Shown piece after piece: positions 10,118-54,416 of a stretch of 64,000 nt of DNA (position 1 is its first letter; the number at the start of each line of letters is the position of its first letter). Location of the stretch: NCBI RefSeq assembly GCF_053078305.1, contig NZ_CP166875.1; one strand, written 5' to 3'. The notes below the pieces were generated by a model. It did not search any database. It was not told the origin of the DNA and was given only the letters and a program-made list of their open reading frames with translations. Source of the DNA: a plasmid. The translations under genes were made by a program, and so were the position numbers.

Positions 10118-10387
10118 CTACTGCTCATCAGGAAACAGCTTTTTCAGTTCTTCACCGGAAAGTCCCGTGACCTCCTGAATCCGTTCCGGCGGCCAGCCTA
10201 TATCCCGCAGCCGGCAGGCTATTTCCCGCGCCACTTCAAGAACCCCTTGTTTAAAACCTTCTTTAAAACCTTCTTTAAAACCCTCGTCGAAACCTTTCTG
10301 TATAAGACGTTCTGCAATCGTCATGCTGTTTGCTCTGCTCCTGCTGGCAAAAAAGCCCGGGATTTTGCCGGGCTTTGTGGTTCTCAT
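10118..10387 (-). CDS. Small protein resembling the C-terminal domain of Rpn nucleases, with KEGF tandem repeats
   Basis: C-terminus (ACRLRDIGWPPERIQEVTGLSGEELKKLF) parallels the C-terminus of the adjacent Rpn protein; 12-bp tandem repeats in DNA. Confidence 0.5.
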   Translation of the reverse strand: MRTTKPGKIPGFFASRSRANSMTIAERLIQKGFDEGFKEGFKEGFKQGVLEVAREIACRLRDIGWPPERIQEVTGLSGEELKKLFPDEQ

Positions 10388-12689: not shown

Positions 12690-13210
12690 GGGCCGACCGA
12701 TTGCTCCCCCGGAGGGGCGAAAGCCCCTTCTGCCGTCCACTTCTTCGGGGTTTCTCCCCGCAGTGGACCTTTCCGATGGGGCAGCGACAGCCACGGCACG
12801 GGGCAGTTGTCCGGGGGCAGACGCAAAAGTTTTTGACGCTTGCGGCAAAAAGTTTTGTGGCTGGTACATCTCCCCCCTGGACGGCTGACACGTGTTGTGG
12901 CCGCTTCAGCCCCCGGAAAGTCCACAGCGGGAAACAGGCCGCAGGGGTGGCGGCGGAAGGGCAGACAACTGCGCCATCAGGCGCAGTTTCCTTACACACC
13001 GTCAGGTGTGCAGGGAGCGCAGGTCACGGCGCGACAGAGGCGGCGCGACCGGAACGGTCGCTGCAAGCCTGGTTTTTCAGACATCGGACCGTAGCGGCAG
13101 CCCGAAACCGCGCCAGCGGGTTCGGCGGAGACTGGCGGGTGCGCCAGCAGCTGCCTGTCGGAGTCGGGCCTGACGACCGGATGCCGCCAGGCAGCCGGGA
13201 GCCGAAGGTG
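12690..13210 (-). repeat. Repeat family A copy 2 (Frpo/ssi-like candidate)
   Basis: Shares conserved blocks with copies A1, A3, A4. Confidence 0.55.
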
Positions 13211-13889: not shown

Positions 13890-13904
13890 TCCCGAATCCT
13901 CCAT

Positions 13905-14100
13905 AGTCACATGTTCTGCGACACCGGGCGGTGCCGTGCCTCCATCTTTGCCGGGCCTGCAGGGATGCAAGGGCGCAAGGAAAGCCGCAGCCCGACGCGC
14001 ACGGCTGACGGGAGTTGGAGGGTGAGACCGCGAAATCTGAGCGGGTGAACGACCGGAAAATCACGGCAGACGGGAAGGAGGGACCGGGTGACCGCAGCGG
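13905..14100 (-). repeat. Repeat family B copy 1 (upstream leader element of ardA)
   Basis: About 190 bp near-identical to 35140-35335, which sits upstream of the KlcA-like gene. Confidence 0.6.
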
Positions 14101-14302
14101 TTCATCTTACCTTGCAACCCGCCCGCAGAAGCCCGGCTACGATGGAGGCACGGCACAGCCCGCACACGACGCTGAGGCCACATAACTGAAAACCCACAAG
14201 GCCATGCCCCGCATGGCCGGGTAAAGCGGAGCCTGCGGCGACATCCTTTTGCTCTTTCCGGGGACCGGCTGGAAAAGGCGGAGATTTTCCCCGCCAGCGT
14301 CA

Positions 14303-15073
14303 TCATTTCCGGATTTTCGCCAGTGCATCCGCCATGCTGCGGATTTCAGTCCGGGCTTCCAGGACCACCTCCCGCAGAATATCCCGGTCAAACCAGCGAC
14401 GGGACGGTTCATCAGGTATACGCAGCACATCGCAGGCCAGCCCACTGGACAGGATATGCTCCACACACTCACTGACCAGATACATTTCCACCGACGAAAA
14501 ACGAGCGCCCCGGTTCAGGATGGCATCGAGCACCACGGGCAGGTTTTCGTCGTCTTCATCGAGCCAGCAGGGGTGATCGCTTTCCTTCACAACCAGACGA
14601 AAGCGGCGCGTCTGGCGGGTCAGCAACGTCTGACCGGTGGTAGTCAACGCCGCACGGATACGCCGCGCATCTTCTGCCACCCGGCAACTGACACTGCATA
14701 CTGCATCGCGCACCGCATCAAGAACTGCCCTGATTTCGTCTTCGGTCAGCCATTCTCCGGCATACGGGAAAGACACCTGCGTTCCGTCTGCCGGAAGTAC
14801 CGGCAGCGACTGCCACTGACTGCCGGACAGAACAAGTTCCGCCCCGGTTCCGGTCAGTTTCTGAATGGCAGAGGCCAGGAGCGGCGGCAGTACGCCGCCG
14901 TGACGGTTGATAAGTAACGTCGCCAGCCGGGGCGCATCCAGCCGCACGTAAATGCTGATCCAGCCCGGATACTTCGGGTTCCGCTGGTCAACATCCGTTT
15001 CTTCCGGCCAGCCCTGCGCCAGCAACAGGTTGCTGGCGTGGCGATAAATCAGTGCATTCAGCGTTTCATTCAT
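14303..15073 (-). CDS. Hypothetical leading-region protein (256 aa)
   Basis: ORF in leading orientation; no recognised domain. Confidence 0.4.
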
Positions 15074-15117
15074 AATTCATGAACTCCCTGTATCGCCGCC
15101 CGAAGGCGGCGATAACA

Positions 15118-15552
15118 TCAGTCGTTTTCGTGTGTGTTGTTTTTCAGCAGGGTGCGGGCCTGATTAACCACCTCCTGACGGCGGGTGACGCATTCCGGGA
15201 CGGCGAGGCCATGATCCCGGGCGGCCCATTCACGTTTCCACAATGCCTGCTCAGCGGTCTGAATCAGGGACGCCAGCAGTTCAGCAGGGACGGTCACCTG
15301 GCGGTTTTCGCTCACGTTATTGATGATCTCCATCACCGCAGCGGAAGAAATACCGGACTCAATCCGCTGTTCTTCCGGGATGTCCTCCAGGCGTGCCAGG
15401 ACGGTCCTGATTTCATGACCGGTCAGAGAAATTTCCATACCGTCAGCCAGTGCCTGAATCTCTTCCGGGGACCAGACAACCAGCATCAGCGGCGTGTTCT
15501 CCGTATACTGCGCTGCCAGCTCACGGCAGAGCGTTTCGCATGTTCCGTACAT
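15118..15552 (-). CDS. Hypothetical leading-region protein, paralog of 34229-34648 (DUF1380-like)
   Basis: Shared start MY(G/C)T and shared motif RxVTVPAxLL with the second copy. Confidence 0.45.
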   Translation of the reverse strand: MYGTCETLCRELAAQYTENTPLMLVVWSPEEIQALADGMEISLTGHEIRTVLARLEDIPEEQRIESGISSAAVMEIINNVSENRQVTVPAELLASLIQTAEQALWKREWAARDHGLAVPECVTRRQEVVNQARTLLKNNTHEND

Positions 15553-15565
15553 TCTCGTCTCCTTC

Positions 15566-15787
15566 TCAATCTTTAAAGCACGCATCCAGTTCCAGAATTT
15601 CGGTATATGCCTCCATCAGGAGGCGGTTTGCGCGAAACAACGTCTGACGCACCAGACGTTCCGGCAGGGTGTCAGCATTAAAGCTGTACCGCCGCTCCAT
15701 CTCATTCATGGTTGTACGCAGGTCGCACATGGCATTGGCCACATCCGCCACTTCGGCGCGAAGTTTTTCGTGTCCGGCATAGTTCAT
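15566..15787 (-). CDS. Hypothetical small protein
   Basis: 73 aa ORF tightly packed between neighbouring genes. Confidence 0.3.
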   Translation of the reverse strand: MNYAGHEKLRAEVADVANAMCDLRTTMNEMERRYSFNADTLPERLVRQTLFRANRLLMEAYTEILELDACFKD

Positions 15788-16471
15788 TTACGCAGCCTCC
15801 GGCATAAACCAGTCATCATTCGCGGCCCCCTGCTGCATGGCCCGTTGTACGGCGGCAAGGCGTTGCTGCCCGGCACGGTGATACTGCTCAAGCAGCTCGA
15901 TACCGATATACCGGCGTCCGGACTGGAAGGCGGCCACGCAGGTTGAGCCGCTGCCTGCAAACGGGTCCAGCACAATTGCGTTCGGGTGTGTGAAGCTCTC
16001 AATCAGCGGTTGCAGGCTGGTAACGGGCTTTTCCGTCGGGTGATGACGATTGCCTGAATATTTCCAGCCCAGCACGTCCGGCAGCGGGTTTTGTGGCAGA
16101 CGTGGACGGCCTTTTGCCAGGATGTAGGCACATTCGTGGCGATAGCCCACATATGCGGCCTTCGATGTGTAGTTTTTGGTGAAGACCAGGTGACCAACAA
16201 CGCTGAATCCCGCATTTTTCCAGGCAGACATAAAACGATCGACGCGATTCCAGCCATAGAAGCTCACCATTAACGCGTCTTTTTTGAGTACGCGGTACAT
16301 CTCATTACAGGCCGGTTGCAGCCATTCATCGGTTTTATCGCCGGCAATGGTACGCCCCTGACGGTCACGAAAACCGACGAGGTACGGCGGGTCGGTGAGG
16401 ATGAAATCAATGGCGTTATCAGGGATACGGGCCATAACATCGATGCAGTTACCGAGGACAAAACGGGACAT
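15788..16471 (-). CDS. Orphan N6-adenine DNA methyltransferase (beta class)
   Basis: DPPY catalytic motif near N-terminus and FxGxG SAM-binding motif (DPFAGSGST) near C-terminus; no adjacent restriction gene. Confidence 0.8.
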   Translation of the reverse strand: MSRFVLGNCIDVMARIPDNAIDFILTDPPYLVGFRDRQGRTIAGDKTDEWLQPACNEMYRVLKKDALMVSFYGWNRVDRFMSAWKNAGFSVVGHLVFTKNYTSKAAYVGYRHECAYILAKGRPRLPQNPLPDVLGWKYSGNRHHPTEKPVTSLQPLIESFTHPNAIVLDPFAGSGSTCVAAFQSGRRYIGIELLEQYHRAGQQRLAAVQRAMQQGAANDDWFMPEAA

Positions 16472-16479
16472 ACCAAACT

Positions 16480-16850
16480 CCTTCTCTTACAGAGGGCACC
16501 GGGAGGGCCCCCCTGTGGTGCCCGTTCCCCGCTGCCTGTGGGCTGTTCACCGCGTCCGGTAACGGGTCAGGCCGACCGTGGAATACCGCAGCCGTCGTCT
16601 TTTTGACGGCAAGGTTATGCCGCGAAAGCGGCTTGAAGGGCGTTCATCAGAAAAGGGCGACGGGCTGGCGTACACTGTCACCGGTGCCAGCCGGGAGCGG
16701 TAAAAGCGCCCGTCCCGTGCCCGGCCGGACGCGGGACACTGACCACAGGCAGCGTTTATGCCGCGCCGCGTCAGCCGGCGCAGTAAAAAGAGGAGCACGG
16801 CGACATCCTTTGTCGGAAAAGAAACGGGCGGTTGCCCGCCCGTCTCCGTC
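16480..16850 (-). repeat. Repeat family C copy 1 (about 330 bp GC-rich structured element)
   Basis: Near-identical to 17795-18125. Confidence 0.6.
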
Positions 16851-16855
16851 ATACT

Positions 16856-17782
16856 TCATCCGCCATAATGCGCCACCTTGTCGACTATCCACGCAGGTCC
16901 GGTGACTTCCGGCAGCTCATCGTCATCTGTCGGGGAAGACCATTCCAGTTCCCCCCACAGCACATCAACGAGCTCTCCGCGCTCATACAACTGCCAGCCA
17001 CAGAAATTGCAGCCCTGTTCGGCGTACCAGTGCTCCAGCGTGCAGCCGAAACGGCGGCTTAATTCTGCAACAACGTCGCTTTCCGGCTGACACCACGGCG
17101 TGTCGAAATCTACCTGAATGAAGTTTTCCCCCTGACTGCTGATATTCAGGTCATACCCACAAGGCCACTTCACGCCATACCGTTCTGTATACCAGTGATA
17201 TGCAGAAGGAACACCGTTCAGAACACCGCCGTTAAAGCCATTCACTTCAATATCCAGGCGGGTCGGCAAAACCGTCAGCAGGTCAAACGGCATGGTTTTT
17301 TCCGGCAGTACGTTGTCACACAGACGGTTCCACCACACCGATACATCCTCGTTACCCCAGATGTCACACCAGTCACCTCTTTTTGCGGTGAAATGCACAG
17401 TGATAGTTTCCCTGACATCATCCGGTAACTCTTCCCAGCGACGCTGTCCAGTACCGCTCTGCAGCCAGAGTTCATGCAGCATCAGGCAGTTTTGCTCATC
17501 CAGCAGTACACCGTTCTGCAGGTGTGTCAGCCAGCGGGTGAACGCGATATTTTCCGGTGATACAGCACCACGTCCGGCAGCCGTCACTCCGGGGCACTGC
17601 TCAGAGCGGATATTTTCAGTGATCTGCAGAAGTCCGGCACTTCCGGCCAGAAACAGCTGAATACCTTCATTTGTGGCGCGGCGATAAAACGGTGTGACTG
17701 CACCGCTGGCCAGTCGTTTAATCTCAGCAATCTGTGCCGGTTCACCAGAAAAATACATACGATTCGAGCACCAGTTTGGCAT
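16856..17782 (-). CDS. Hypothetical leading-region protein (DUF1281-like)
   Basis: Start refined to ATG at MPNWCSNRMYF; flanked on both sides by repeat family C. Confidence 0.45.
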   Translation of the reverse strand: MPNWCSNRMYFSGEPAQIAEIKRLASGAVTPFYRRATNEGIQLFLAGSAGLLQITENIRSEQCPGVTAAGRGAVSPENIAFTRWLTHLQNGVLLDEQNCLMLHELWLQSGTGQRRWEELPDDVRETITVHFTAKRGDWCDIWGNEDVSVWWNRLCDNVLPEKTMPFDLLTVLPTRLDIEVNGFNGGVLNGVPSAYHWYTERYGVKWPCGYDLNISSQGENFIQVDFDTPWCQPESDVVAELSRRFGCTLEHWYAEQGCNFCGWQLYERGELVDVLWGELEWSSPTDDDELPEVTGPAWIVDKVAHYGG

Positions 17783-17794
17783 GGGAATTCTCCT

Positions 17795-18125
17795 CACAGG
17801 AGCACCGGGAGGGAGCCCCTGTGGCGCCCGTTCCCCGCTGCCTGTGGGCTGTTCACCGCGTCCGGTAACGGGTCAGGCCGACCGTGGAATACCGCAGCCG
17901 TCGTCTGTTTGACGGCAAGGTTATGCCGCGAAAGCGGCTTGAAGGGCGTTCATCAGAAAAGGGCGACGGGCTGGCGTACACTATCACCGACGCCAGCCGG
18001 GAGCGGTAAAAGCGCCCGTCCCGTGCCCGCCGGACGCGGGACACTGACCACAGGCAGCGTTTATGCCGCGCCGCGTCAGCCGGCGCAGTAAAAAGAGGAG
18101 CACGGCGACATCCTTTTCCCCTGAA
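17795..18125 (-). repeat. Repeat family C copy 2
   Basis: Near-identical to 16480-16850. Confidence 0.6.
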
Positions 18126-18139
18126 CATCCGTCAGCCTT

Positions 18140-18380
18140 TCTCTGCGGCAAGATCAATCCTTAACAGAAAAAAAACCAACAAGCACCCACATAAAAAACA
18201 AAAAACCCAAGCAACACCCACACAAACAAAAAAAACACCCAGAAAACACCCAAAGACAAACAACAATAAAGTAATGAAACCCATAAAACACCCAAAAAAA
18301 GACAAAAAAGATTAAATAGCACTTGAACGCCACCAAAAAAATACTATTATGGGTATAGACACCCAAACGACACCCAAAAG
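18140..18380. other. A/C-rich iterated array (CACCC-type motifs), parC-like centromere candidate
   Basis: More than 10 spaced (A)CACCCA motifs in a very A/C-biased stretch directly upstream of the ParM-like gene. Confidence 0.5.
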
Positions 18381-18388
18381 AGGATTTT

Positions 18389-19360
18389 ATGATTAAGATA
18401 TTCTGTGATGATGGTTCTACAGCGGTTAAGCTGGCATGGTTTGAAAACGGGGAACTAAAAACCCTCATTAGTCACAATTCTTTCAAGGAAGGCTGGAACA
18501 CATCAGGATTTGGCAGTGAGAAAACTTATAATTACTTAGTCGATGGAGAGAAATATGCGTTTGATACACATAACCCATCAGCAATAGTCACAACCAATAT
18601 TGAGTTTCAATATAGTGTAGAAAATCGTCTCGCTGTACATCACGCACTACTACAAACAGGAATGGAGCCTGGGGATGTAGAGCTTTGGGTTACATTACCT
18701 GTATCTGAATATTTCACTACAGATATGCAAGAGAATTCGGATAACATAAGAAAAAAAATAGAAAACCTGAAAAAAGAAATTACACTGAATAAAGGCAGCG
18801 TATTTTCAATCAAGAAAGTTCATGTATTACCCGAGTCTCTACCTGCAGCGTTGACCTCTCTCGAAGAGGATAAAGTCAGTGATCTTGAAACGTCCCTTGT
18901 CGTCGATCTTGGTGGAACAACTCTTGATTGTGGCGCTATAGCTGGCAGATATAAAAATGTAACACAAGTATCCGGAGAACCTGGTCTTGGCGTAACTCTG
19001 GTAACAACGGCGACAATGAATGCCCTGAAACAGGCAGGAACGCATACCAGCTACTATATTGCAGATCAACTGGTTAGAAACAGAAATGCTGATGATTTAT
19101 TCGAAATTGTTGTTAATGACAGCAGTAAAATAGATGATGTGAAATCAGTAATTGAAAACAGTATTACAAGACTTTCAGACAGAGTTATAAATCATTTACA
19201 CTCGTACAAAGGGATAAATCGTATATACATGACTGGTGGTGGTGCGGAACTAATCTACCCTGCAATAAAAAAAGCATTCCCCTTATTAAAGGATAAAGTA
19301 AAAATTTTACCAGATGCGCAATTAGCCCTTGTTATTTCTATTGCTGAAATAAATCGATAA
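18389..19360 (+). CDS. parM: Actin-like segregation ATPase (ParM/StbA family)
   Basis: 323 aa; actin-fold phosphate motifs (DDGST; DLGGTTLD; MTGGGAE); RBS aagagga upstream. Confidence 0.75.
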   Translation: MIKIFCDDGSTAVKLAWFENGELKTLISHNSFKEGWNTSGFGSEKTYNYLVDGEKYAFDTHNPSAIVTTNIEFQYSVENRLAVHHALLQTGMEPGDVELWVTLPVSEYFTTDMQENSDNIRKKIENLKKEITLNKGSVFSIKKVHVLPESLPAALTSLEEDKVSDLETSLVVDLGGTTLDCGAIAGRYKNVTQVSGEPGLGVTLVTTATMNALKQAGTHTSYYIADQLVRNRNADDLFEIVVNDSSKIDDVKSVIENSITRLSDRVINHLHSYKGINRIYMTGGGAELIYPAIKKAFPLLKDKVKILPDAQLALVISIAEINR

Positions 19361-19923
19361 TGAGGTACAGGATGAGTGATGAACGTCGTAAATTATGGCT
19401 ATACTTATATCCTGATGAGCCACAGCAAAAATCCGCAATAGAAACCATTGAAGAAATACCTCAAAGACAACGTTCTGATTTCTTCAGAGATAGTATTGTT
19501 GCAGGTATTGCATTATCAAAACTCGATAAACGATTACCTGCACTTGTATCTATGTTACTACAGCAAGATAGTAATATAGATACTCTTGTACGTATTTTAA
19601 AAATACTATTCCCCAAGCTTGATATTGACTCAACGGAAGATAAATCTACACTCTGTGCCGTTGCTTGGCAAAAAAGATGTCGGGATGAATTACAACAAGG
19701 CACACCATGGTCTGCCTGGTTTGCGATTAGTGAGGATGAATATAATCATCATCTTAATCATCCAGAATCAAACAGTCAGGTACGTGCATTATGGGCTTAT
19801 GATGAAAACGAGCAGAAAAAGGATATACAGGATAAAGAGAGAACGCCCTTTCCGGAGGCCAACACCAATACAAGTTCAGAAACATTGAGTAATGCTAAAA
19901 AATTATTTGGTAATTCAAATTAA
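19360..19923 (+). CDS. Partition adaptor (ParR/StbB-like)
   Basis: Translationally coupled to the ParM-like gene; assignment by position only. Confidence 0.45.
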   Translation: MRYRMSDERRKLWLYLYPDEPQQKSAIETIEEIPQRQRSDFFRDSIVAGIALSKLDKRLPALVSMLLQQDSNIDTLVRILKILFPKLDIDSTEDKSTLCAVAWQKRCRDELQQGTPWSAWFAISEDEYNHHLNHPESNSQVRALWAYDENEQKKDIQDKERTPFPEANTNTSSETLSNAKKLFGNSN

Positions 19924-20033
19924 TTATTCAAAGAAAATCCCGGTCGAAGGGCCGGGATGTTTACACGTTAACCACCCTGCAATTCTGCCACTCCTGATGC
20001 GGAATAACAGGACAGGACCGGGAACAGTCAGGC

Positions 20034-21560
20034 TCACTTTTTTCTCCGTCGTCTGCCACGCGCTCTGCTGCCTGTATTTTTTTCCCGGGATGCCGGCTCA
20101 CTCTGCAATGCCGGGGGAGGTACCTGTTTCAGGAGCTGGCGCAGCACACTGTTGAGGATCAGCGTCCGCCGAGCCCGTGTGGCAGCCACATAGAGCAGGT
20201 TGAGTTCATCCCGCAGTTTCTCTTCAAATTCCTGCACATTGTCCGTTCCCGGCTGCTCAAGCTCCTGAAAATCCTCATGCAGCCTCACTGTGTCCCATTC
20301 CAGGCCTTTGGCCCTGTGCACCGTGGTGACAGTCACGGCAGCAGCCTTTTCGTCACGGACCTCATATTTTCGCAGCGTGGCCACATGTTCCGGCAGCGGC
20401 GAAAACTTCTGAATGATAGCCACTGACTGCAGCATTTCCGCGTCCCGGCTTGCCTTTGCCGTCGCCTCATAGTCAGAGAACGACTCCCACGCAGCAAAGC
20501 GAGCCGGCTCCCGGATTTTTTCCGTCATTCCCACAGAAAACCACCACAGATCCAGCAGGCGGGCAACCGGCCAGGCATTCATACCGTTGATCCAGTATGT
20601 TTTCTGCTTCCTCCGGGCCGCGTGAAGCGCAGCACCAATCACGCCCATCACTGTCCGGCACAGCACCGCACAGTGAGGCATATTCCTCTCGGGTTTCAGC
20701 AACAGACGGTCATCACCGCCAAGCCCACAGACTTTTTTCGTCTCCCCGTCCAGAGCCAGCACAGCATTTGCCACATCTGCCACACAGGGACCGAAACGGA
20801 AACTGCCGGTAAGCCACAGCCTGTCTGCCGTGGCCAGAGAGGGGGTATTCAGCGCATCCACGGCACCCCGGAAGCGATAAATCTGCTGATGTGGATCACC
20901 CACCATCACCAGCGTTCCACGGTGGCGCAGGACCAGGTCGGAGATCACCGGACTGGCGTCCTGGGCTTCATCAAACAGGATTTCATCGTACTTTGCGGAC
21001 AGATCCGGCTGCGAAAGCTGGTACAGCTTCAGATACAGATCATGAACGACCGGAAAGTCATCACTGCGGTCGCACATTCTTTGCCAGAGACGCACGGCCA
21101 GCGGCAGCACCTCTGCTGCGCGCAGTGGCGGCCTGGCACGGACATGCACCTCAGACAACGTCGTGTCCGCACTGTTCATGAAAGCCTGTAGGGTTTCCCT
21201 GACGGCCGCAGCCAACGGCCACTGGCGCAGTGAAAGCGCCCCGGCGATATCAGTAATGCCCAGGGAAGGCACGAGACGGTGGGAGTAATGTCGTCCAAAT
21301 TCCGGCCACGCCAGCTGATGTGCAGTCCGGCAACAGACATTCACCGGGAAGCGTGCCTGAGCCTCCTCCCGGACAGACCGGTTGAATGCGATATAGAGCA
21401 TACGGCGTTCAGGCCGGGCCTGCGCATAAGCCACCAGTGTGGCTGTTTTGCCGGTGCCGGCAAAAGCCCTGACAACCAGTCGCTGTCCCTGCCAGTTAAT
21501 GACAGCCTGTTGTTCAGCGGTCGGAGCGTGACGGATTTTCCTGACCGGGTGCTGAGTCAT
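20034..21560 (-). CDS. UvrD/Rep-family superfamily I helicase-like protein
   Basis: Walker A (AGTGKT), Walker B-like (LFDEAQD) and UvrD C-terminal motif (TVHRAKGLEWDTV); start uncertain. Confidence 0.6.
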   Translation of the reverse strand: MTQHPVRKIRHAPTAEQQAVINWQGQRLVVRAFAGTGKTATLVAYAQARPERRMLYIAFNRSVREEAQARFPVNVCCRTAHQLAWPEFGRHYSHRLVPSLGITDIAGALSLRQWPLAAAVRETLQAFMNSADTTLSEVHVRARPPLRAAEVLPLAVRLWQRMCDRSDDFPVVHDLYLKLYQLSQPDLSAKYDEILFDEAQDASPVISDLVLRHRGTLVMVGDPHQQIYRFRGAVDALNTPSLATADRLWLTGSFRFGPCVADVANAVLALDGETKKVCGLGGDDRLLLKPERNMPHCAVLCRTVMGVIGAALHAARRKQKTYWINGMNAWPVARLLDLWWFSVGMTEKIREPARFAAWESFSDYEATAKASRDAEMLQSVAIIQKFSPLPEHVATLRKYEVRDEKAAAVTVTTVHRAKGLEWDTVRLHEDFQELEQPGTDNVQEFEEKLRDELNLLYVAATRARRTLILNSVLRQLLKQVPPPALQSEPASREKNTGSRARGRRRRKK

Positions 21561-22183
21561 TTTGCCGTTGCGTCCTCCCCGTCCGTCATCCCGGCCAGAG
21601 CGACCTGTTTTTTCTCCCACCGTCGGTCCCGGATGGCCAGCCAGCGTTGAGCATTTTTTGCCTCATCCTCAGAAACCAGCCCGGCAGGCTTACCGTCGAG
21701 GTCATAGCGGGTGGCACCGGTGACAGCGGTACGCAACAGATAGACACGGCGGGAGGTGATACAGGATACGGCACAGTCCCATTCATCCCGGGTGAGTCCG
21801 GCTTCAGGGTGCTCAGCCAGCCAGGCAGGAATATCGCGGGAGATACCGACCCTGAGAGGCAGAAAACCGCCGCCTTCAGCGCGAAGATGCGGGAAAATCG
21901 CCTTGACCTTTTCCATGCACTGGTCGGTGAACTCCCGTGTCCAGTGCTCTCTGAGGGGTCTGCGTGGTGGTCTTCCTTTCCTTTTTTTTCCGACGGCAGC
22001 AGGCGCAGGAGACGCATCCTGGATGGGGGCTGGCAGCTGCTCATCAGCAGCAGCCGGTGGTGCCCCCACTTCCGGTACAGGCGAAATGACAGTCTCTGTT
22101 TTATCGACGACAGGTGGTGGTGAAATAACGCGACGTTTTTTCACCACAATGACGGGCGTTTTCTTTTCCTGATTCCTGGCCAT
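21557..22183 (-). CDS. ProQ/FinO-family RNA-binding protein (FopA-like)
   Basis: C-terminal region matches the ProQ/FinO pattern (FPxLRAEGGGFLPLRVGISRDI...SRRVYL...ATRYDLDGKPAG); paralog at 53208-53789. Confidence 0.6.
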   Translation of the reverse strand: MARNQEKKTPVIVVKKRRVISPPPVVDKTETVISPVPEVGAPPAAADEQLPAPIQDASPAPAAVGKKRKGRPPRRPLREHWTREFTDQCMEKVKAIFPHLRAEGGGFLPLRVGISRDIPAWLAEHPEAGLTRDEWDCAVSCITSRRVYLLRTAVTGATRYDLDGKPAGLVSEDEAKNAQRWLAIRDRRWEKKQVALAGMTDGEDATAK

Positions 22184-22635
22184 TAATACCCCGACAAGAT
22201 TAAATTCTGGTTAACGATATCATTATACAGCGAATAATATAATTATGGTTCACGTATTATTATCCGTGACTCTTTCCTGGTAACTCCCGCATAATAACTT
22301 CACTTTTCCAGTATTCCAGAAGATGATGTTTTTTCCTCGATAATAAAAATGTGCCAATATGGAAATAAGAAATCGGATTTTTTATCAGCATACGCAAATT
22401 TTCAGATAACAATGAATACAGATGTATTTTATATACACAGATAAAACCGCGCAACAGACATAAATATGACAGTAGCATGAAAAAGCAGAGAGAGACAGGG
22501 TGATACAGAAAAGTAACTATTTTTTTAGCTATAGTATTATTGGTTTTACCTATTTTCGTGATTGTGTTTCTGTATATTGGGGGTTCGCGCCCATTTCCTC
22601 TAAAAGTCTCACCTTGCTTAGGTAATTAATTGAAT

Positions 22636-23217
22636 TTATTTATAAAACGTTGCAATTTTAGCATCATTTTTTATTGTTCTTTTTAACCTGAAGTACGTCG
22701 ATCGAGAGATACCTGTTTTTTCTGTCACACTGCCCAGAGATTCTCCCTGTGATATAAGCTCCAACGCTGTAGGCGTTCGTGGATGCTTCTTCCTGCCAAA
22801 TTTTACGCCTGCGGCAAGTGCCGCTATTCTTCCGTCGTTTGTCCGCTCCAGAATACGCTCACGTTCCGCTTCAGCTACAGCAGCAAGGATTTGGATAACC
22901 ATTTTGCCCATTGTCCCTTCTGTACTGAGACCGTTCTCCAGGAACCGGATGGCGATCCCCTTTTTGTAACAGCTATCAACCACACGAATCATGTCAGCAG
23001 TGTTACGCCCCAGTCGGTCCATTTTTGTACAGATGATTACGTCGTCTTTCTCTGCACGGGCCAACAACCGCTGTAGTCCTTCCCGTTCATCAGTTGCGCC
23101 AGTCATCATATCCGTAAAAATACGATCTTCCCGTACCCCGGCATTTTTTAGCTCCGAGATTTGATGTGTTAGCTTCTGATGACTGGTTGATACCCGTGCA
23201 TACCCCAATAACGCCAT
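22636..23217 (-). CDS. tnpR: Serine recombinase / resolvase
   Basis: N-terminal catalytic serine motif (GYARVSTSHQ), C-terminal HTH; divergent from the transposase gene. Confidence 0.85.
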   Translation of the reverse strand: MALLGYARVSTSHQKLTHQISELKNAGVREDRIFTDMMTGATDEREGLQRLLARAEKDDVIICTKMDRLGRNTADMIRVVDSCYKKGIAIRFLENGLSTEGTMGKMVIQILAAVAEAERERILERTNDGRIAALAAGVKFGRKKHPRTPTALELISQGESLGSVTEKTGISRSTYFRLKRTIKNDAKIATFYK

Positions 23218-23373
23218 TTTTAGTCTCACTTATCGTTTTTGACACTGCATGGTATCATAATGTACAAAATACGATTTTTGAAACCTGCTTTTATGCTGTT
23301 TTAGACAGGTATCAGATATCTTAATATTTGATACTAGCCATATTTAACAAATATTTAGCATTTTGGTAAATGT

Positions 23374-26300
23374 ATGCAGAAGTACAAGAAAAGAATTAGT
23401 ATATTAACAAAAAGTGAAATAAATGAATTATATCAAGTCCCCTCTTTTAATCCTGTTGAAAGGGATGAGTTTTTTTCGCTGGATATCAGCCTTAAAAGAG
23501 AAATTGATAAAATAATAAATATAGAAAGCAGGGTGTATCTGATATTAATAACAGGGTATTTCAGATATAAACCTGTGATTCCTGAATTTACATTAAAAGA
23601 CGTAAAAAGGGATGTGAAATATATTATCCAGACATATTATAAAAACGAAAGTACTAATCTCAATTTAAACATACCTAAAAGTACAAAGTACCGCCTTGTT
23701 AAACGAATGCTTTCTACTCTAGGATTTGAACAACTCACCCCATCTATAAAAAATGAGTTAAGTGAACGTCTGAATGATGTTGCTACTATATGTATGGAAC
23801 CAAAATATATTTTTGATGAATTACTTGCTTTTTTAGGACAGCGGCGTATAGCTCTTCCTGGATACAGTACTGTCCAGAACCTCGTTTCAGATGCTTTAAA
23901 CTTTGAAAGGAAAAGGACAATTAATATTTTGTCAAAGAGAATTTATCCTGCCACTGCACAAAAGATTACATCCATCATCCATGATGATGGAATATTAAAT
24001 TCCATCAGGGGATATAATTATAGCACGAGAGACTTCTCAGCATCAGAAATAGAAAATGAATTAAGAACTCACAATGTGATAAGTAGTATTTACTATGAAA
24101 TAAAAGATATAATTAATTCATTAGGTATATCCCAGGGAAACATGGAGTACTATGCAACTATCGTAAAACACAGTACAACATTCAGACTTAAGCGACACCC
24201 TAAATGGCAAGGAATACTTTATTTGTGCTGCTACTTGTACTTCAGATACAGAGAGATAAATGATAAAATAATCACAGCCTTCAGATATTTAGTAAAAAAA
24301 CATAAAGACGCTTCAGTTTTGTTTGCAAAAGCTCGGGCAACAGAGGAAATAGATCTAATAAATAAAAAGCTTAAGTTTGCGAGTAAAATATTTAACTTCT
24401 TCGTTGATAGTAACATTGAAGACAGCATCCCTTTTGGATATGTTCGTGAAAAGGTTTTTTCACTTATATCGAAAGATGATATGCATCTTGTGAGTGAATT
24501 TTTTGACAAAAATAAAATCGATGTAATTGAATATCAATGGCAGTATATTGACAGCCATCACCTTAAGATCGCCAATTCAATCCGAAAGCTTTTTCTGGCT
24601 ATAGATATAGTATATGACAACGAGAAGTCTGTTATTGGCCAGCAAATTACTGCTGCCAAGGATGATCTCAGAGGAAAAGGAAAGCTGGATGCTAAGGATC
24701 TGAGGGTAATTCATCCATCCGAGAAAAATTACATTGTAAAAGAAGGAGAAATTAACACTCAACGATTCGAATTTCATATGTACAGCAGGGTATCTAACCA
24801 TCTGGAAAACGGTGTCTTTTATGCTGCGGAGAGTGAACAAAACAAGAGACTGGAAGATGATCTCATAGAACGAAGTTACTGGCATAAGAATAAATCGATT
24901 TTGATAGAGAAAACAGGCCTTGAACGACTTATCACACCAATAACGCAGACTCTTAATGAGCTGGAGAATACCTTTAGCGATAAACTGGCTCGTATAACCA
25001 TTGGAATAAACTCAGATGCTAATGAGTTTGTGAAAAAACAACCACACTCCAACAGATTACAGTGGAGTCTGGCCAGTAAAAAATGGAAGACCAGCATCGA
25101 TAATCCGATTTACAATCAGATAAAAAATATCGGAATAGTTGACGTAATGAAGTATGTAAACAATGAGACGAATTTTTTGTCTGTGTTTAATGCCATATCA
25201 TCCAGGAAAAATAATCTTGAAGCTGACTATAATGACCTTCTTGCCTGTATATTTGGTAATGGCGCAAATTATGGTGTTCACAGAATGGCATCTGCATCAG
25301 ACCGTAGTATTGGAATACTACGTGATGTGAATGACAAATTCATTCGTCCAGAAACAACAGGAATGGCCAACACAGTAATATCTGATGCAATTGCAAATCT
25401 TTCTGTATATAAATACTGGACGATAAATGAAGATTCTCCATTTGGAAGTGTTGATGGGCAGAAGCACACTTGCAGAATAAATACATTTAAAGCCCGTTAT
25501 TCTGCCAAGTATTTCAGAAAGGGGAAAGGGGTTTCTGCGATGACACTGGTATCTAATCATGTGCCATTATCAACTGTGGTAATTTCTCCAAATGAATATG
25601 AAGGTCATTTTGCATTTGACTTGTTATATAACAACACCAGTGAAATACAACCAAAGTCATTAGCGACTGACAATCATGGTATAAACAACGTTAATTTTGC
25701 GATTCTTGACATTTTTGGCTATCAGTTTTCACCACGTTATGCAAAATTCAAGAAAATATTTAATGAATTATTTGATGTTATACTGGAGAGTGATAAACTC
25801 ATTATAAAACTTAAAAAACAATTTAACTTTAAGCTCATTGAACATGAATGGGAAAACATCCAACATATTATTTGTTCTTTAAGCAGAAAAACAACCATTC
25901 AAAGTACGGTTGTTAAGAAGTTATCTAATACAAAGCGTAGCAACAAGACATTAGCAGCACTTCGGGAGTATGACCGAGTTATAAAATGCATATATGTCCT
26001 GGATTATGCTGACAATAAAACCTTAAGGCAATTTGTGCAACAAGCACTGAACAGAGGTGAAGCTTATCATCAACTAAGAAGAGCAATAGCATCAGTAAAT
26101 GGAAATCAATTTCGCGGTGGTAATGACTACCAAATAGATCAATGGAACGACTGTGCGAGGTTAATAGCTAATTGTGTAATCTATTATAATTCAGCAATAT
26201 TATCCAGGCTGGTCGAGAAATTTGAAAAAGAAAATAATAAAAAAGCGATAGATGTTCTGGCTAACTTATCCCCAGTAGCATGGAGACACATTCTCCTTGG

Positions 26301-26412
26301 AGGGAATTATTCTTTTGAAGATCAAGTTGCGATCACAAATTTGGACAGTCTTTTGGAGGGAGTAGACCCACTAAGTGATATCGGAGATATTGAGTCCGAA
26401 TATGACGGTTAA
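23374..26412 (+). CDS. tnpA: Tn3-family DDE transposase
   Basis: 1012 aa, size and organisation typical of Tn3-family TnpA; AT-rich codon usage unlike the backbone. Confidence 0.8.
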   Translation: MQKYKKRISILTKSEINELYQVPSFNPVERDEFFSLDISLKREIDKIINIESRVYLILITGYFRYKPVIPEFTLKDVKRDVKYIIQTYYKNESTNLNLNIPKSTKYRLVKRMLSTLGFEQLTPSIKNELSERLNDVATICMEPKYIFDELLAFLGQRRIALPGYSTVQNLVSDALNFERKRTINILSKRIYPATAQKITSIIHDDGILNSIRGYNYSTRDFSASEIENELRTHNVISSIYYEIKDIINSLGISQGNMEYYATIVKHSTTFRLKRHPKWQGILYLCCYLYFRYREINDKIITAFRYLVKKHKDASVLFAKARATEEIDLINKKLKFASKIFNFFVDSNIEDSIPFGYVREKVFSLISKDDMHLVSEFFDKNKIDVIEYQWQYIDSHHLKIANSIRKLFLAIDIVYDNEKSVIGQQITAAKDDLRGKGKLDAKDLRVIHPSEKNYIVKEGEINTQRFEFHMYSRVSNHLENGVFYAAESEQNKRLEDDLIERSYWHKNKSILIEKTGLERLITPITQTLNELENTFSDKLARITIGINSDANEFVKKQPHSNRLQWSLASKKWKTSIDNPIYNQIKNIGIVDVMKYVNNETNFLSVFNAISSRKNNLEADYNDLLACIFGNGANYGVHRMASASDRSIGILRDVNDKFIRPETTGMANTVISDAIANLSVYKYWTINEDSPFGSVDGQKHTCRINTFKARYSAKYFRKGKGVSAMTLVSNHVPLSTVVISPNEYEGHFAFDLLYNNTSEIQPKSLATDNHGINNVNFAILDIFGYQFSPRYAKFKKIFNELFDVILESDKLIIKLKKQFNFKLIEHEWENIQHIICSLSRKTTIQSTVVKKLSNTKRSNKTLAALREYDRVIKCIYVLDYADNKTLRQFVQQALNRGEAYHQLRRAIASVNGNQFRGGNDYQIDQWNDCARLIANCVIYYNSAILSRLVEKFEKENNKKAIDVLANLSPVAWRHILLGGNYSFEDQVAITNLDSLLEGVDPLSDIGDIESEYDG

Positions 26413-26478
26413 CAACATGATAAATAATGGTTTTTATGCTAAGAGTGAGACTTTTGGAGGAAATGGGCGCAGAACCCC

Positions 26479-28089: not shown

Positions 28090-28490
28090 GCCGCAAGGGG
28101 CATCACTGCCACGGCCGGAAACGACTGTCCGGGGGCAGACCGCAAAAGTTTTTGCCTGCTTTTGGGCAAAAAGTTTTGCGGGATGTGCATTTCACCCCTG
28201 GACTGGCGGAGACGGTTGTGGCTGTCTTTGCCCCCGGCGACAGGGGCTTAAACAGGTGTATGGCACCGGACACAACAACGGGCAGGGACCCGCCGCAACG
28301 ACGAAGAGCGCGTGCGCGAAACGGCGTTGCCCCTTACATCCCGGCGGCCTTTTGCCGGGATGCCAGGAGCGCAGGCCACGGCGCGACAGAGGCGGCGCGA
28401 CCGGAACGGTCGCTGCAAGCCCGGGGTTTCGCGTCAGGGATGGAAGCCCGCCAGGGCGGAGACAGCTTCGCTGGCTCCGTTCACGACAGC
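28090..28490 (-). repeat. Repeat family A copy 3 (partial, more divergent)
   Basis: Shares the ctgtccgggggcagac...gcaaaagttttt and ggcgcgaccggaacggtcgctgcaagcc blocks. Confidence 0.5.
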
Positions 28491-28856: not shown

Positions 28857-29015
28857 CTACTTACCGGATTCGTAAGCCATGAAAGCCGCCACCTCCCTGT
28901 ATCCGTCTCTGTAACGAATCTCGCACAGCGATTTTCGTGTCAGATAAGTAAATATCAACAGTGTGAGACACACAATCAACACACACCAGACAAGAGAGCT
29001 GCGTGGTAGTTTCAT
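28857..29015 (-). CDS. hok: Hok/Gef-family type I toxin (FlmA/Hok-like)
   Basis: 52 aa [52 protein letters not shown]; adjacent to psiA. Confidence 0.85.
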
Positions 29016-29289
29016 GGCCTTCTTCTCCTTGCGCAAAGCGCGGTAAGAGGCTATCCTGATGTTGTCAGACATATGGGATGCCTCGTGGGTTAATGAAAAA
29101 TTAACTACGGGGCTATCTTCTTTCTGCCACACAACACGGTAACAAACCACCTTCACGTCATGAGGCAGAAAGCCTCAAGCGCCGGGCACATCATAGCCCA
29201 TATACCTGCACGCTGACCACACTCACTTTTCCTGAAAATAACCCGCTCATTCAGGCTGTTTACGGGTAATCTGTGTGATTGTTGCCGCA

Positions 29290-37754: not shown

Positions 37755-37850
37755 GTTCTGATGTGGATGTACAGGAGCCAGAAAAGTGAAAACCCCGATA
37801 ATCTTCTTTAACTTTGGCGAGTGAGAAAGATTACCGGGGCCATCTAAAAA
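37755..37850 (-). ncRNA. copA: CopA-type antisense RNA (replication control), inferred
   Basis: Imperfect long stem-loop (ccccgataatctt...aagattaccgggg) in the repA leader between copB and tap; position as in IncFII replicons. Confidence 0.4.
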
Positions 37851-37890
37851 CCGTATAGCCAACAATTCAGCTATGCGGGGAGTATAGTTA

Positions 37891-43068: not shown

Positions 43069-43125
43069 GGGGGTTCGCGCCCATTTCCTCTAAAAGTCTC
43101 ACCTTGCTTAGGTAATTAATTGAAT

Positions 43126-53207: not shown

Positions 53208-53789
53208 CTACCGGGCCTTCATACTCAGCCACCTCTGCTCTTTCGCCGCCAGCCAGCGCCTGGAATTTTGAGCATCACATTCCGATACTTCCCCCTCTGG
53301 TTGACCATCCAGGTTATAACGGGGAGTTCCTGCAACAGAGGTTCTCTGCAGGTAGATCCGGCGACTGGTAATGCAGGATACTGCACAATTCCATTCGTCC
53401 AGGGTCAGCGCTGTTTCCGGATGTGCTGCCAGATATGTAGTAATGTCACGGGTTATGCCTGTTTTCAGAGGCAGAAAACCGCCCCCTTCGGCACGAAGTT
53501 GAGGAAACAGCGCTTTCACCTTCTCCAGACAATCGTGAGTGAACTCACTGGTCCAGTGGGATGGTCTTGGAAAGCGTTGTCTTTTCTTTTTCTTCTTCCT
53601 GGCTGGCGCTTCGGGGATATGAGTTTCGACGGCAGGTGAACTGATTCCGGAGGAGACTGATTCTGTCGCCTGTTCAGTGAGTGCAGGCGCGATAACATCT
53701 TTTTTTTCGGCTAAGGAAGGCGGTGAAAAAGAGCGACGTTTTTTCACCACAATGACGGGATTTTTCTTTTCTTCCAGATCTTTTCCCAT
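53208..53789 (-). CDS. ProQ/FinO-family RNA-binding protein (FopA-like), second paralog
   Basis: Same domain pattern as 21557-22183; AT-rich upstream region. Confidence 0.6.
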   Translation of the reverse strand: MGKDLEEKKNPVIVVKKRRSFSPPSLAEKKDVIAPALTEQATESVSSGISSPAVETHIPEAPARKKKKKRQRFPRPSHWTSEFTHDCLEKVKALFPQLRAEGGGFLPLKTGITRDITTYLAAHPETALTLDEWNCAVSCITSRRIYLQRTSVAGTPRYNLDGQPEGEVSECDAQNSRRWLAAKEQRWLSMKAR

Positions 53790-54025
53790 AAATACCTCTG
53801 CTTCAGAATTTATTTTTTAATAATATCACAAATTATAAATTAATAAAGATTCTCATCTGATAAATTTGTTTAATAATCGGCCTCTAAAAAATATATTGTA
53901 TCCACTTTGTTGTGGTTCTGACAGAAGTAAATTAATTTGAAGTAAATAAAGCAAAATATCAGAAGAATATATCGGGGCGCACAGTCTATCTCTGCCTTTG
54001 TTTCATGGGATGTTCTTTGTATATT

Positions 54026-54062
54026 TTACTTGCTGTTTACTTGCTGTTTACTTGCTGTTTAA
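54026..54062 (+). repeat. 11-bp tandem repeat (gtttacttgct) x 3
   Basis: Directly visible. Confidence 0.8.
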
Positions 54063-54416
54063 GTATGTATATAAGGAGTGCATTCATTATGCCAATGAAG
54101 CTTGTAAAGAAGAATCCCCGGAGCAAAGTGATTCGGGAGCTTAGCTGTGAGCAAGAGATGGCAGTAAAGGCGGTCTGCGGACTGAAAAAACAGCAACTAC
54201 GGCACTACATGCCCTGGCCAATGATCTTCTCCGGGAAATGCGTGAGTATGATGCATGGTTACAGTGTGACTGTATTCCGGGAGATTCGCCGACCATGAAT
54301 TTTGCTGCTCTTAAAAACAACACGGGAACTTTTTATCTGTCCAGTTTGGATATAGATAATTATTGTACTAATAAGGGAAGCCAACACCAGCCGACAGACC
54401 AGACGCCGCTGCTCAT

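What the first reader, a model, noticed from the sequence alone, without database searches (positions are those of the whole stretch)
20034..22183. UvrD-like helicase and ProQ/FinO-like RNA chaperone paired in the leading region; second ProQ/FinO paralog at 53.2 kb
Seen in sequence: a superfamily I helicase-like gene (Walker A and B, UvrD C-terminal motif) overlaps the stop of a ProQ/FinO-family gene, and a paralog of the latter occurs at 53208-53789, each with a long AT-rich upstream region. Inference: two plasmid-borne RNA chaperones could regulate antisense-RNA-controlled loci here (copA, hok/sok-type), and the helicase may act on incoming DNA.
Basis: partly seen in the sequence, partly recalled or inferred. 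Interest (0 to 1): 0.5.

Follow-up and report, generated by a model that had tools for sequence, protein, structure and literature searches.

The report
FopA-type RNA chaperones and plasmid helicase
This E. coli plasmid carries two copies of a known kind of RNA-binding regulator of plasmid copy number (FopA family), one of them in a two-gene operon with an intact but unstudied DNA helicase typical of mobile elements; the annotation is correct and largely ordinary, and the helicase is the only open question.

Summary
Gene 21557-22183(-) and gene 53208-53789(-) both hit Pfam ProQ/FinO. They are full-length homologues (55% and 71% identity) of FopA/YafB of pCol1B9, a characterised chaperone of the Inc antisense RNA. 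ORF 20034-21560(-) is an intact UvrD-type SF1 helicase with all motifs. Its ATG overlaps the FopA stop (ATGA).

The window is a mosaic plasmid. Bases 1-22580 are IncK2/Z backbone, followed by two identical Tn3-family copies flanking an IncFII segment, then an accessory block that holds the second paralogue.

The pairing is not a family-wide association. About 95 helicase loci elsewhere lack FopA, and most of 734 matching plasmids, which match mainly over the fopA1 gene, lack the helicase. A representative one keeps a ~44-codon stub, so the operon looks ancestral and mostly deleted. Both genes are under purifying selection.

The helicase belongs to a mobile-element clade whose closest solved relative is human FBH1 (36% identity). 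Relatives sit next to MOBH relaxase genes in ICEs and RecT/RecE genes in phages.

The best reading is two independent functions in one operon: copy-number control by RNA, and accessory DNA processing. The I-complex Inc/repZ target lies outside the window. This is a new member of known kinds, of modest interest.

The parts
21557..22183 (-). fopA1: FopA/YafB-family FinO-domain protein, 208 aa, IncK2/Z type
   Evidence: Pfam ProQ PF04352 4.6e-14. 55% identity over the full length to FopA of pCol1B9. The family profile hits the ProQ N-terminal domain 5nb9 (2.8e-7) and RocC (4e-5). dN/dS is 0.32-0.37.
20034..21560 (-). UvrD-type SF1A helicase, 508 aa from the ATG (PGAP uses GTG 21620, 528 aa); FBH1-like clade of mobile elements
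   Evidence: Pfam hits. Motifs I-VI are invariant. Human FBH1 9xzj_F scores E 6.5e-66 with 36% identity. phrog_1967 scores 1e-84. dN/dS is 0.16 against L009.
21557..21560 (-). ATGA overlap of the fopA1 stop and the helicase start (translational coupling likely)
   Evidence: Read directly from the sequence. The same junction occurs in L009 and in the helicase-less L004.
22184..22578 (-). AT-rich (31% GC) upstream region of fopA1 with promoter-like sites; cut at 22579 by a Tn3-family insertion
   Evidence: GC content. A -35/-10 match lies at 22283-22256. An extended -10 TGTATAAT at 22229-22222 was read. Identity to the parent plasmid ends at 22580.
19937..19958 (-). Terminator-like hairpin plus T-run 76 nt after the helicase stop; probable end of the operon
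   Evidence: consensus match only.
53208..53789 (-). fopA2: second FopA-family gene, 193 aa, closer to canonical FopA
   Evidence: Pfam ProQ 1.8e-11. 71% identity to pCol1B9 FopA. 99.5% identical to the copy in the IncFIA/FIC plasmid L002, and about 9 aa shorter at the C-terminus.
53790..54347 (-). Upstream region of fopA2, homologous (82%) to the fopA-yagA intergenic region plus about 260 bp of the yagA 5' end; an I-complex backbone fragment inside an accessory block
   Evidence: Homology runs over window 53185-54347 against L003 3711-4927.
37784..37874 (-). CopA antisense RNA of the IncFII replicon; the only replication-control antisense RNA in the window and a candidate (untested) foster ligand
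   Evidence: Rfam CopA 98.9 bits. It shares the hairpin, CGCCAA loop and GGGGUUUUC tail with Inc RNAs.

Best explanation
Two independent functions share one operon.

fopA1, and separately fopA2, encode FopA-family FinO-domain RNA chaperones. By homology, they bind the terminator-type hairpin and 3' U-tail of the replicon's antisense RNA (Inc RNA of I-complex plasmids) and speed its pairing with the rep leader. This holds down initiator synthesis and plasmid copy number.

The helicase is co-transcribed with fopA1 and is probably translationally coupled to it through the ATGA overlap. It is an active UvrD/FBH1-type 3'-5' SF1A DNA helicase that works on plasmid DNA, not with FopA on RNA. Its most likely role is as an accessory enzyme of conjugative DNA processing or establishment. 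That could mean unwinding for a relaxase that has no helicase domain, or clearing RecA or hairpins from single-stranded plasmid DNA as host UvrD does.

The operon is ancestral in the IncK2/Z fopA1 lineage, and the helicase has been deleted from most descendants, so it is dispensable. The second paralogue is in the window because the plasmid is a mosaic.

Shown here: domains, motifs, operon structure, distribution and purifying selection. Inferred: RNA ligands, helicase substrate and helicase role.
For: FopA identity: Pfam ProQ hits and full-length 55% and 71% identity to FopA of pCol1B9, including its N-terminal PVIVVKKRR segment. The family profile hits the ProQ and RocC FinO domains with the Tyr and Arg of the conserved YL / GATR-DLDG stretch retained. 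FopA biochemistry comes from PMC7491321 and PMC9977716. The parent IncK2/Z plasmid has the I-complex PK-repZ control region (164 bits), about 4.6 kb from fopA1.

Operon: the ATGA overlap, no terminator-like site at the fopA1-helicase junction and a terminator-like site after the helicase, and equal GC content of 58.5% and 58.7%. The same pair sits in different flanks in L009.

Functional genes: dN/dS is 0.16 for the helicase and 0.32-0.37 for fopA1, and the helicase motifs are intact.

Independence of the two functions: no FopA-like ORF lies near about 95 helicase loci outside this lineage, and no PF04352 neighbour appears in ICE or plasmid contexts. The helicase family is in 1855 plasmid records. 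Sequence from this locus, mainly the fopA1 gene, is in 734 records, of which about 5 hold the full pair. The full pair is in 6 of 5426 complete E. coli genomes. The PerC-type plasmid L004 keeps the ATGA junction and a ~44-codon helicase stub.

DNA role: relatives are adjacent to or overlap MOBH TraI_2 relaxase genes in four ICEs (five loci) and one plasmid. Others lie next to RecT-like genes (14 loci) and RecE-like genes (12 loci) in phages. The closest solved relative, FBH1, is described in the literature as limiting RAD51-driven recombination. Host UvrD is needed in recipients for ss-to-ds conversion (PMC10085688; bioRxiv 2026.01.09.698686). The window's relaxase matches only a relaxase model, over residues 1-321, and no helicase family.
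Against: No experiment exists on these alleles. The I-complex Inc/repZ region is absent from the window, so it is unknown whether the cognate target is on this plasmid. fopA2 lies in a block also carried by an IncFIA/FIC plasmid with no I-complex replicon, so its ligand is unclear. A Tn3-family insertion 395 bp upstream of fopA1 may affect expression. The helicase has been lost from most relatives. In F, complementary-strand synthesis needs no plasmid-encoded protein, so any establishment role must be auxiliary. None of the ssDNA-promoter-type repeats matches the region upstream of the operon. The contexts of helicase relatives are varied (relaxase, Tus/tra, TopB-Hha-H-NS, TrfA, RecET), so a single role is not proven.
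Confidence: 0.55

Rival explanations
1. The two proteins are a functional pair acting on RNA. The helicase remodels FopA-RNA complexes or RNA-DNA hybrids at the replicon, acting as an RNA chaperone plus helicase module.
For: There is translational coupling through the ATGA overlap. The pair is retained together in two lineages that are 95% identical but have different flanks. [quoted passage not shown]
Against: The pairing is confined to one small lineage. About 95 helicase loci elsewhere have no FopA, and hundreds of fopA1-type and fopA2-type plasmids have no helicase. FopA of pCol1B9 works without such a helicase. Helicase relatives associate with DNA-processing genes.
Confidence: 0.08
2. 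The helicase is a defence or anti-defence gene (Gabija GajB-like or similar), carried in the leading region to fight or evade host systems.
For: PADLOC GajB models hit at up to 2.7e-24. In ICEs and a Pantoea plasmid, relatives lie beside anti-restriction-type genes (ArdC-like, methylase, DUF1281). The window has a methylase and DUF1281 about 2-4 kb away.
Against: The GajB hits cover only the shared SF1 motif stretches, and GajB structures score only E~1e-3 against 6.5e-66 for FBH1. No GajA/OLD-type partner is adjacent; the neighbours are stbB, parM and fopA1. The leading-region anti-defence survey does not mention helicases.
Confidence: 0.07
3. The pair is an inert relic. The helicase is a decaying passenger with no role, and fopA2 is a non-functional hitch-hiker.
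For: The helicase is deleted or truncated in most relatives. fopA2 is a solitary backbone fragment with a yagA 5' remnant and a C-terminus shortened by about 9 aa.
Against: The helicase has a dN/dS of 0.16 and all motifs intact. fopA2 is an intact ORF with the FinO domain conserved, and it is 99.5% identical to the copy in L002.
Confidence: 0.12
4. A -1 ribosomal frameshift near the end of fopA1 makes a FopA-helicase fusion protein.
For: The helicase frame is open for 34 codons upstream of its ATG in all four plasmids examined. This open stretch contains A6 runs (GAGAAAAAACAG, GCAAAAAATGC).
Against: There is no canonical X XXY YYZ heptamer in the fopA1 frame, and no stimulatory structure was sought or seen. 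None of 120 listed helicase homologues carries a ProQ domain. The upstream 20 codons are not conserved in homologues.
Confidence: 0.02

Closest known systems
FopA (YafB) of Salmonella plasmid pCol1B9 (IncI); Gerovac et al. 2020, PMC7491321
   Same: Same family along the whole length: the N-terminal basic segment plus the central FinO domain. fopA2 is 71% and fopA1 55% identical. In native plasmids the gene is on the I-complex backbone, a few kb from rep and the yacAB toxin-antitoxin genes.
   Different: fopA1 points the same way as repA and is followed by a helicase. Canonical fopA points the other way, is followed by two small ORFs, and faces yagA. fopA2 lies here in an accessory block away from any I-complex replicon. 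RNA ligands were not tested.
FinO (F-like plasmids), PcnR (IncI2) and ProQ / RocC
   Same: They share the FinO/ProQ domain. FinO and PcnR are also plasmid-borne repressors acting through structured RNAs.
   Different: Matches to the NCBIfam FinO and ProQ models are far below cut-off (21 and 27 bits against 136 and 127). The N-terminal region differs, and the targets differ (FinP/traJ, the repR leader, or global).
UvrD / PcrA / Rep (SF1A helicases)
   Same: All SF1A motifs and the Pfam UvrD domains are present. Host UvrD assists plasmid ss-to-ds conversion in recipients, and PcrA can replace it.
   Different: The protein is only 508 aa. Similarity is limited to the motif regions (E~1e-7), and all NCBIfam equivalog scores are far below cut-off.
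Human F-box DNA helicase 1 (FBH1), PDB 9xzj
   Same: It is the closest solved relative by a wide margin: E 6.5e-66, 36% identity over 480 residues spanning the whole helicase core, with near-identical motifs.
   Different: There is no F-box or N-terminal region, because the plasmid protein starts at the helicase core. It is of bacterial mobile-element origin. Anti-recombinase activity was not tested.
Uncharacterised helicases beside MOBH (TraI_2) relaxase genes in Enterobacterales ICEs, in IncC plasmids, and in phage RecET modules
   Same: They are 30-55% identical along the full length and belong to the same family.
   Different: Here the upstream partner is fopA1 rather than a relaxase or recombinase gene, and the plasmid's relaxase is MOBP (NikB type) 12 kb away.

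Membership tests
ProQ/FinO domain family (PF04352) | Significant match to the family profile over the domain | tested here: met
   4.6e-14 (residues 87-192) and 1.8e-11 (residues 85-186). The profile of the six FopA-like sequences hits ProQ 5nb9 at 2.8e-7 and RocC at 4e-5.
ProQ/FinO domain family (PF04352) | Binding of structured RNA (terminator hairpin plus 3' tail) | not testable with these tools
   This needs EMSA or CLIP. Only the conservation of the Tyr and Arg in the conserved YL / GATR-DLDG stretch is seen.
FopA subfamily | Full-length homology to FopA of pCol1B9, including its own N-terminal region | tested here: met
   55% (fopA1) and 71% (fopA2) identity from residue 1, with the PVIVVKKRR segment invariant.
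FopA subfamily | Encoded on an I-complex plasmid near the Inc/repZ-type replicon that it controls | tested here: inconclusive
   This is met in the parent plasmids (PK-repZ at 164 bits in pJNE170426-2; fopA2-type next to yacAB). No PK-repZ or Inc region is in the window, and the rest of the plasmid is unseen.
FopA subfamily | Binds Inc RNA and accelerates Inc-rep leader pairing | not testable with these tools
   Known only for pCol1B9 FopA.
SF1A UvrD-like helicases | Helicase motifs I, Ia, II, III, IV, V and VI intact | tested here: met
   GTGKT, DEAQD, VGDPHQQIYRFRGA, SFRFG, HRAKGLEWD and YVAATRA are invariant in a five-member alignment. Pfam UvrD-helicase, UvrD_C and AAA_19 also hit.
SF1A UvrD-like helicases | DNA-dependent ATPase and 3'-5' unwinding | not testable with these tools
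   A biochemical assay is needed.
FBH1 (F-box DNA helicase) | Helicase core of the FBH1 type | tested here: met
   E 6.5e-66 with 36% identity over query residues 14-497 against FBH1 residues 371-888.
FBH1 (F-box DNA helicase) | N-terminal F-box / SCF ubiquitin-ligase module | tested here: not met
   The protein begins 13 residues before the aligned core, and there is no other Pfam domain. It is therefore not an FBH1 orthologue, only the same helicase clade.
Gabija GajB | Full-length match to GajB and an adjacent GajA (OLD-type nuclease) gene | tested here: not met
   PADLOC hits cover only short motif stretches. GajB structures score E~1e-3. The neighbours are stbB/parM and fopA1.
Leading-region (early, zygotically induced) genes | Located on the leading side of oriT, in the same orientation as the leading genes, and preceded by an ssDNA promoter hairpin | tested here: inconclusive
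   The side and the strand agree: the pair is 12-14 kb from nikA on the minus strand, like the leading genes. However, a partition locus intervenes, and none of the ~330-nt hairpin repeats matches 22184-22578; that region was not folded.

The most novel reading that the evidence does not exclude
The helicase represents an unstudied clade of FBH1-type helicases carried by mobile elements: ICEs with MOBH relaxases, IncC and other conjugative plasmids, and phage RecET modules. On this reading the element supplies its own UvrD-like activity, either to unwind DNA for relaxases that lack a helicase domain or to strip RecA and melt hairpins on incoming single-stranded DNA. That would make establishment less dependent on the recipient's UvrD. 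Its coupling to fopA here would tie this activity to copy-number control. The clade may also mark the prokaryotic source of the eukaryotic FBH1 helicase core.
Probability: 0.2. Interest if true: 0.6.

Novelty: new member of a known kind. Interest (0 to 1): 0.3.

Why it matters
FopA-type proteins set the copy number, and so the cost, of I-complex resistance plasmids. A mosaic plasmid with two diverged paralogues and an IncFII CopA replicon is a natural test of how selective FinO domains are for their RNA ligands. The helicase matters more. Host UvrD was recently shown to be needed in recipients for conjugative plasmid establishment. A widespread, unstudied helicase family on conjugative elements would be an obvious candidate for an element-encoded counterpart. 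It might also serve as a partner for relaxases that lack a helicase domain. As it stands, the locus itself is correctly described by existing annotation.

Tried and rejected
1. Defence-system reading: PADLOC gave only partial GajB motif hits and there is no GajA neighbour, so it was rejected.

2. Fused or associated '3'-5' exonuclease': several relatives, and the identical protein P0001, carry that product name. Pfam shows only helicase domains, so the name appears to be an annotation habit rather than a real domain.

3. Recurrent FopA-helicase association: an HMM of the FopA family, searched over all ORFs of 80 phage loci and about 15 plasmid or ICE loci carrying the helicase, found none outside IncK2/Z. 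The HMM is narrow, so very distant FinO domains could be missed. Pfam-annotated neighbours also showed no PF04352.

4. Rfam scan for Inc/PK-repZ or other RNAs near either fopA: none was found in the window.

5. Simple cointegrate model for the two Tn3-family copies: the flanking 5-bp sequences do not match in any pairing.

6. Accession look-ups HE654725 and AP005147 failed. NC_017718 supplied canonical FopA.

7. Literature searches for a bacterial FBH1 link and for the IncC helicase found nothing relevant.

8. Frameshift fusion: stop codons do not exclude it, but there is no positive evidence.
Full report
**What is there**

The ORF list shows two same-strand genes on the minus strand. One is a 208-aa gene at 21557-22183. 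The other is a helicase ORF at 20034-21620 from a GTG, or 20034-21560 from the ATG. A third gene of 193 aa lies at 53208-53789.

Pfam gives ProQ/FinO for both small proteins (4.6e-14 and 1.8e-11). For the large one it gives UvrD_C, UvrD-helicase and AAA_19. The two small proteins are 55% identical.

The minus-strand sequence reads GCA AAA TGA / ATG ACT, so the stop of the first gene and the ATG of the helicase overlap as ATGA. The regions upstream of both small genes are AT-rich, at 31% and 33% GC. The window averages 49%, and both operon genes are at 58.5%.

**Where it sits**

The window is a mosaic E. coli plasmid.

- Bases 13897-22580 are 99-100% identical to the IncK2/Z conjugative plasmid pJNE170426-2, apart from a group II intron that the window lacks.
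- A MOBP relaxase (4690-7410) and a MobA/NikA-type gene (7422-7754) mark the oriT end.
- Minus-strand leading-type genes follow up to 17.8 kb, then parM/stbB on the plus strand, then the helicase and the FinO-domain gene.
- In the parent plasmid the next genes are a 3'-5' exonuclease, yacAB and repA. The pair therefore lies at the junction of the partition and replication regions, 12-14 kb from oriT on the leading side.
- At 22579 a 3900-bp Tn3-family element (resolvase plus transposase) interrupts the backbone. An identical direct copy lies at 43069-46968. Between the two copies are an IncF-type leading region and an IncFII replicon with CopA and two sok RNAs.
- Bases 47467-60608 are 99.4% identical to an accessory block of an IncFIA/FIC plasmid. 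That block contains the second FinO-domain gene, between hydrolase and phospholipid-type genes.

**The small proteins are FopA**

FopA (YafB) of pCol1B9 is a characterised FinO-domain protein. About 80% of its bound RNA is the Inc antisense RNA. It binds Inc and the repZ leader at about 1 µM, speeds their pairing about 7-fold, and so represses the initiator (PMC7491321 and PMC9977716).

I fetched the pCol1B9 gene. It is 71% identical to the 53.2-kb copy (fopA2) and 55% identical to the 21.6-kb copy (fopA1). Identity runs over the full length and includes the N-terminal PVIVVKKRR segment that sets FopA apart from FinO.

A profile of six such proteins hits the ProQ N-terminal domain (2.8e-7) and RocC (4e-5). 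The Tyr and Arg of the conserved YL / GATR-DLDG stretch are retained.

Sequence from the fopA1 locus, mainly the fopA1 gene, occurs in 734 plasmid records. fopA2/canonical-type sequences occur in 1393 records. Nearly all of both are conjugative Enterobacteriaceae plasmids. fopA2-type genes sit natively next to yacAB on MOBP/MPF_I plasmids.

In the window, fopA2 is a backbone fragment. It comprises the gene, the intergenic region and about 260 bp of the yagA 5' end, at 82% identity to I-complex plasmids.

dN/dS values of 0.26-0.37 indicate constraint.

**Targets**

The parent plasmid has the I-complex control region (Rfam PK-repZ, 164 bits) upstream of repA. Nothing like it is in the window.

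The only replication-control antisense RNA in the window is CopA of the IncFII replicon. It aligns with the Inc RNAs of pCol1B9 and pJNE170426-2 through the main hairpin, the CGCCAA loop and the GGGGUUUUC tail, and it folds the same way.

Binding of CopA by these FopA paralogues is therefore reasonable but untested. I found no reason to link them to hok/sok.

**The helicase**

All SF1A motifs are present and invariant in an alignment with relatives that are 31-96% identical.

NCBIfam equivalogs for UvrD, Rep, PcrA, RecB, AddA and helicase IV match only motif stretches, far below their cut-offs.

Against solved structures the best hit is human F-box DNA helicase 1, at E 6.5e-66 and 36% identity over 480 residues covering the whole core. 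UvrD and PcrA reach only about 1e-7, and GajB about 1e-3. The plasmid protein has no F-box, so it shares the clade of the helicase core without being an orthologue.

PHROG 1967 ('DNA helicase') matches at 1e-84.

The family is large. It is found in 1855 plasmid records, of which 1233 are conjugative, including IncC at 44.5% identity. There are 841 clusters at E<=1e-10 among the 8000 candidates scored, many of them from Salmonella, Serratia and Xenorhabdus chromosomes. It is also in 244 phage-collection stretches.

**Context of relatives**

- In four Enterobacterales ICEs (five loci) the helicase gene lies directly upstream of, or overlaps, a MOBH TraI_2 relaxase gene, which is followed by an integrase gene. 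ArdC-like and methylase genes lie upstream.
- A Pantoea plasmid has the order DUF1281, helicase, TraI.
- Other contexts are Tus-like/traF in IncC, TopB-Hha-H-NS and TrfA/HU.
- In phage contigs the recurrent upstream neighbours are RecT-like genes (14 loci) and RecE-like genes (12 loci).

These are all DNA-processing settings.

**Is the pairing meaningful?**

As an operon, yes.

- The two genes share the ATGA overlap and have equal GC content.
- There is no terminator-like site at their junction, and there is a terminator-like hairpin 76 nt after the helicase stop.
- The pair is conserved in a second IncK2/Z lineage (95% nucleotide identity) whose flanks differ.
- The common PerC-type IncK2/Z plasmids still carry the ATGA junction and a diverged ~44-codon helicase stub after fopA1. 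The operon is therefore probably ancestral and the helicase was later deleted.
- The helicase has a dN/dS of 0.16.

As a recurrent functional couple, no.

- None of about 95 helicase loci outside this lineage has a FopA-like ORF nearby.
- Only about five PLSDB plasmids carry the full pair, and only 6 of 5426 complete E. coli genomes do.
- Truncated copies exist (H6-H9; E. albertii fragments among IS elements).

**Mechanism proposed**

FopA1 and FopA2 act as Inc/CopA-type antisense RNA chaperones that limit initiator synthesis.

The helicase is a DNA enzyme expressed from the same transcript. The precedent closest to this setting is host UvrD. Recipients need it for ss-to-ds conversion of IncI, IncF and IncW plasmids, and PcrA can substitute for it (PMC10085688). 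It also resolves a leading-region ssDNA-promoter roadblock in F (bioRxiv 2026.01.09.698686).

The relaxase coupling seen in ICEs suggests a donor-side unwinding role as an alternative. Both roles are inference. Loss of the helicase from most relatives shows that it is auxiliary.

**Verdict**

The small genes are members of the already characterised FopA family. The helicase is an intact member of a widespread but unstudied mobile-element helicase family.

The presence of two paralogues reflects plasmid mosaicism. I rate this as a new member of known kinds, with interest of about 0.3. The FBH1-type helicase clade is the part worth experimental follow-up.

Noticed in passing
window 20034-21560 (-): The closest solved relative of the helicase is human F-box DNA helicase 1 (36% identity over the whole core, E 6.5e-66). 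Bacterial UvrD and PcrA score only about 1e-7. This points to a mobile-element clade of FBH1-type helicases without the F-box. No paper on this link was found.
   Followed up: partly
L097, L098, L099, L100, L101 (ICEs) and L005 (Pantoea plasmid): Relatives of the helicase (about 50% identity) lie immediately upstream of, or overlap, a MOBH TraI_2 relaxase gene followed by an integrase gene. This may be a partner helicase for relaxases that lack a helicase domain.
   Followed up: partly
phage loci, e.g. L057 2817-4607 and L069 2873-3910: In phage contigs the helicase family sits directly downstream of RecT-like annealing protein genes (14 loci) and RecE-like exonuclease genes (12 loci).
   Followed up: partly
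window 22579-26478 and 43069-46968: There are two identical 3900-bp Tn3-family elements (resolvase plus 1012-aa transposase, ~35-bp terminal inverted repeats) in direct orientation. They bracket a 16.6-kb IncF leading region with an IncFII replicon. The flanking 5-bp sequences do not match, so the structure is not a simple transposition cointegrate.
   Followed up: partly
window 9304-9634, 12708-13038, 33407-33852, 28097-28430: These are ~330-bp repeats (68-93% identity between copies) in both leading regions. The copy at 12708-13038 folds as ssDNA into a long imperfect hairpin (-109 kcal/mol, z = -9.6), as expected of Frpo-type single-strand promoters.
   Followed up: partly
window 16482-16811 and 17788-18116: Direct repeats of 330 bp at 96% identity flank the DUF1281 gene (16856-17797). 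In the parent plasmid a group II intron lies between the gene and the second repeat, and the window lacks it.
   Followed up: no
L004 4927-5070: Common PerC-type IncK2/Z plasmids keep the ATGA junction and a diverged ~44-codon stub of the helicase after fopA1, overlapping the convergent PerC gene. This is evidence that the helicase was deleted in most of the lineage.
   Followed up: yes
window 21560-21662 (-): The helicase reading frame stays open for 34 codons upstream of its ATG, inside fopA1, and this stretch includes two A6 runs. A -1 frameshift fusion is not excluded by stop codons, but nothing supports it.
   Followed up: partly
window 37784-37874 (-), 36828-36984 (+), 29013-29184 (-), 35428-35570 (-): Rfam finds CopA, two sok antitoxin RNAs and AS-pc02 in the IncF-derived segment. 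CopA shares its main hairpin, loop motif and U-tail with I-complex Inc RNAs.
   Followed up: partly
window 47467-60608: This accessory block is 99.4% identical to one on an IncFIA/FIC plasmid. It carries alpha/beta hydrolases, a hydrolase-methyltransferase fusion, and acyltransferase, CDP-diglyceride synthase-type and radical SAM/nucleotide genes. The block embeds fopA2 and pieces of I-complex backbone (DUF6404 and neighbouring ORFs). Its function is unknown.
   Followed up: no
window 10387-11301 (-): An RpnA-like recombination-promoting nuclease / ISNCY-type gene lies inside the IncK-side leading region, which here differs from the parent plasmid.
   Followed up: no
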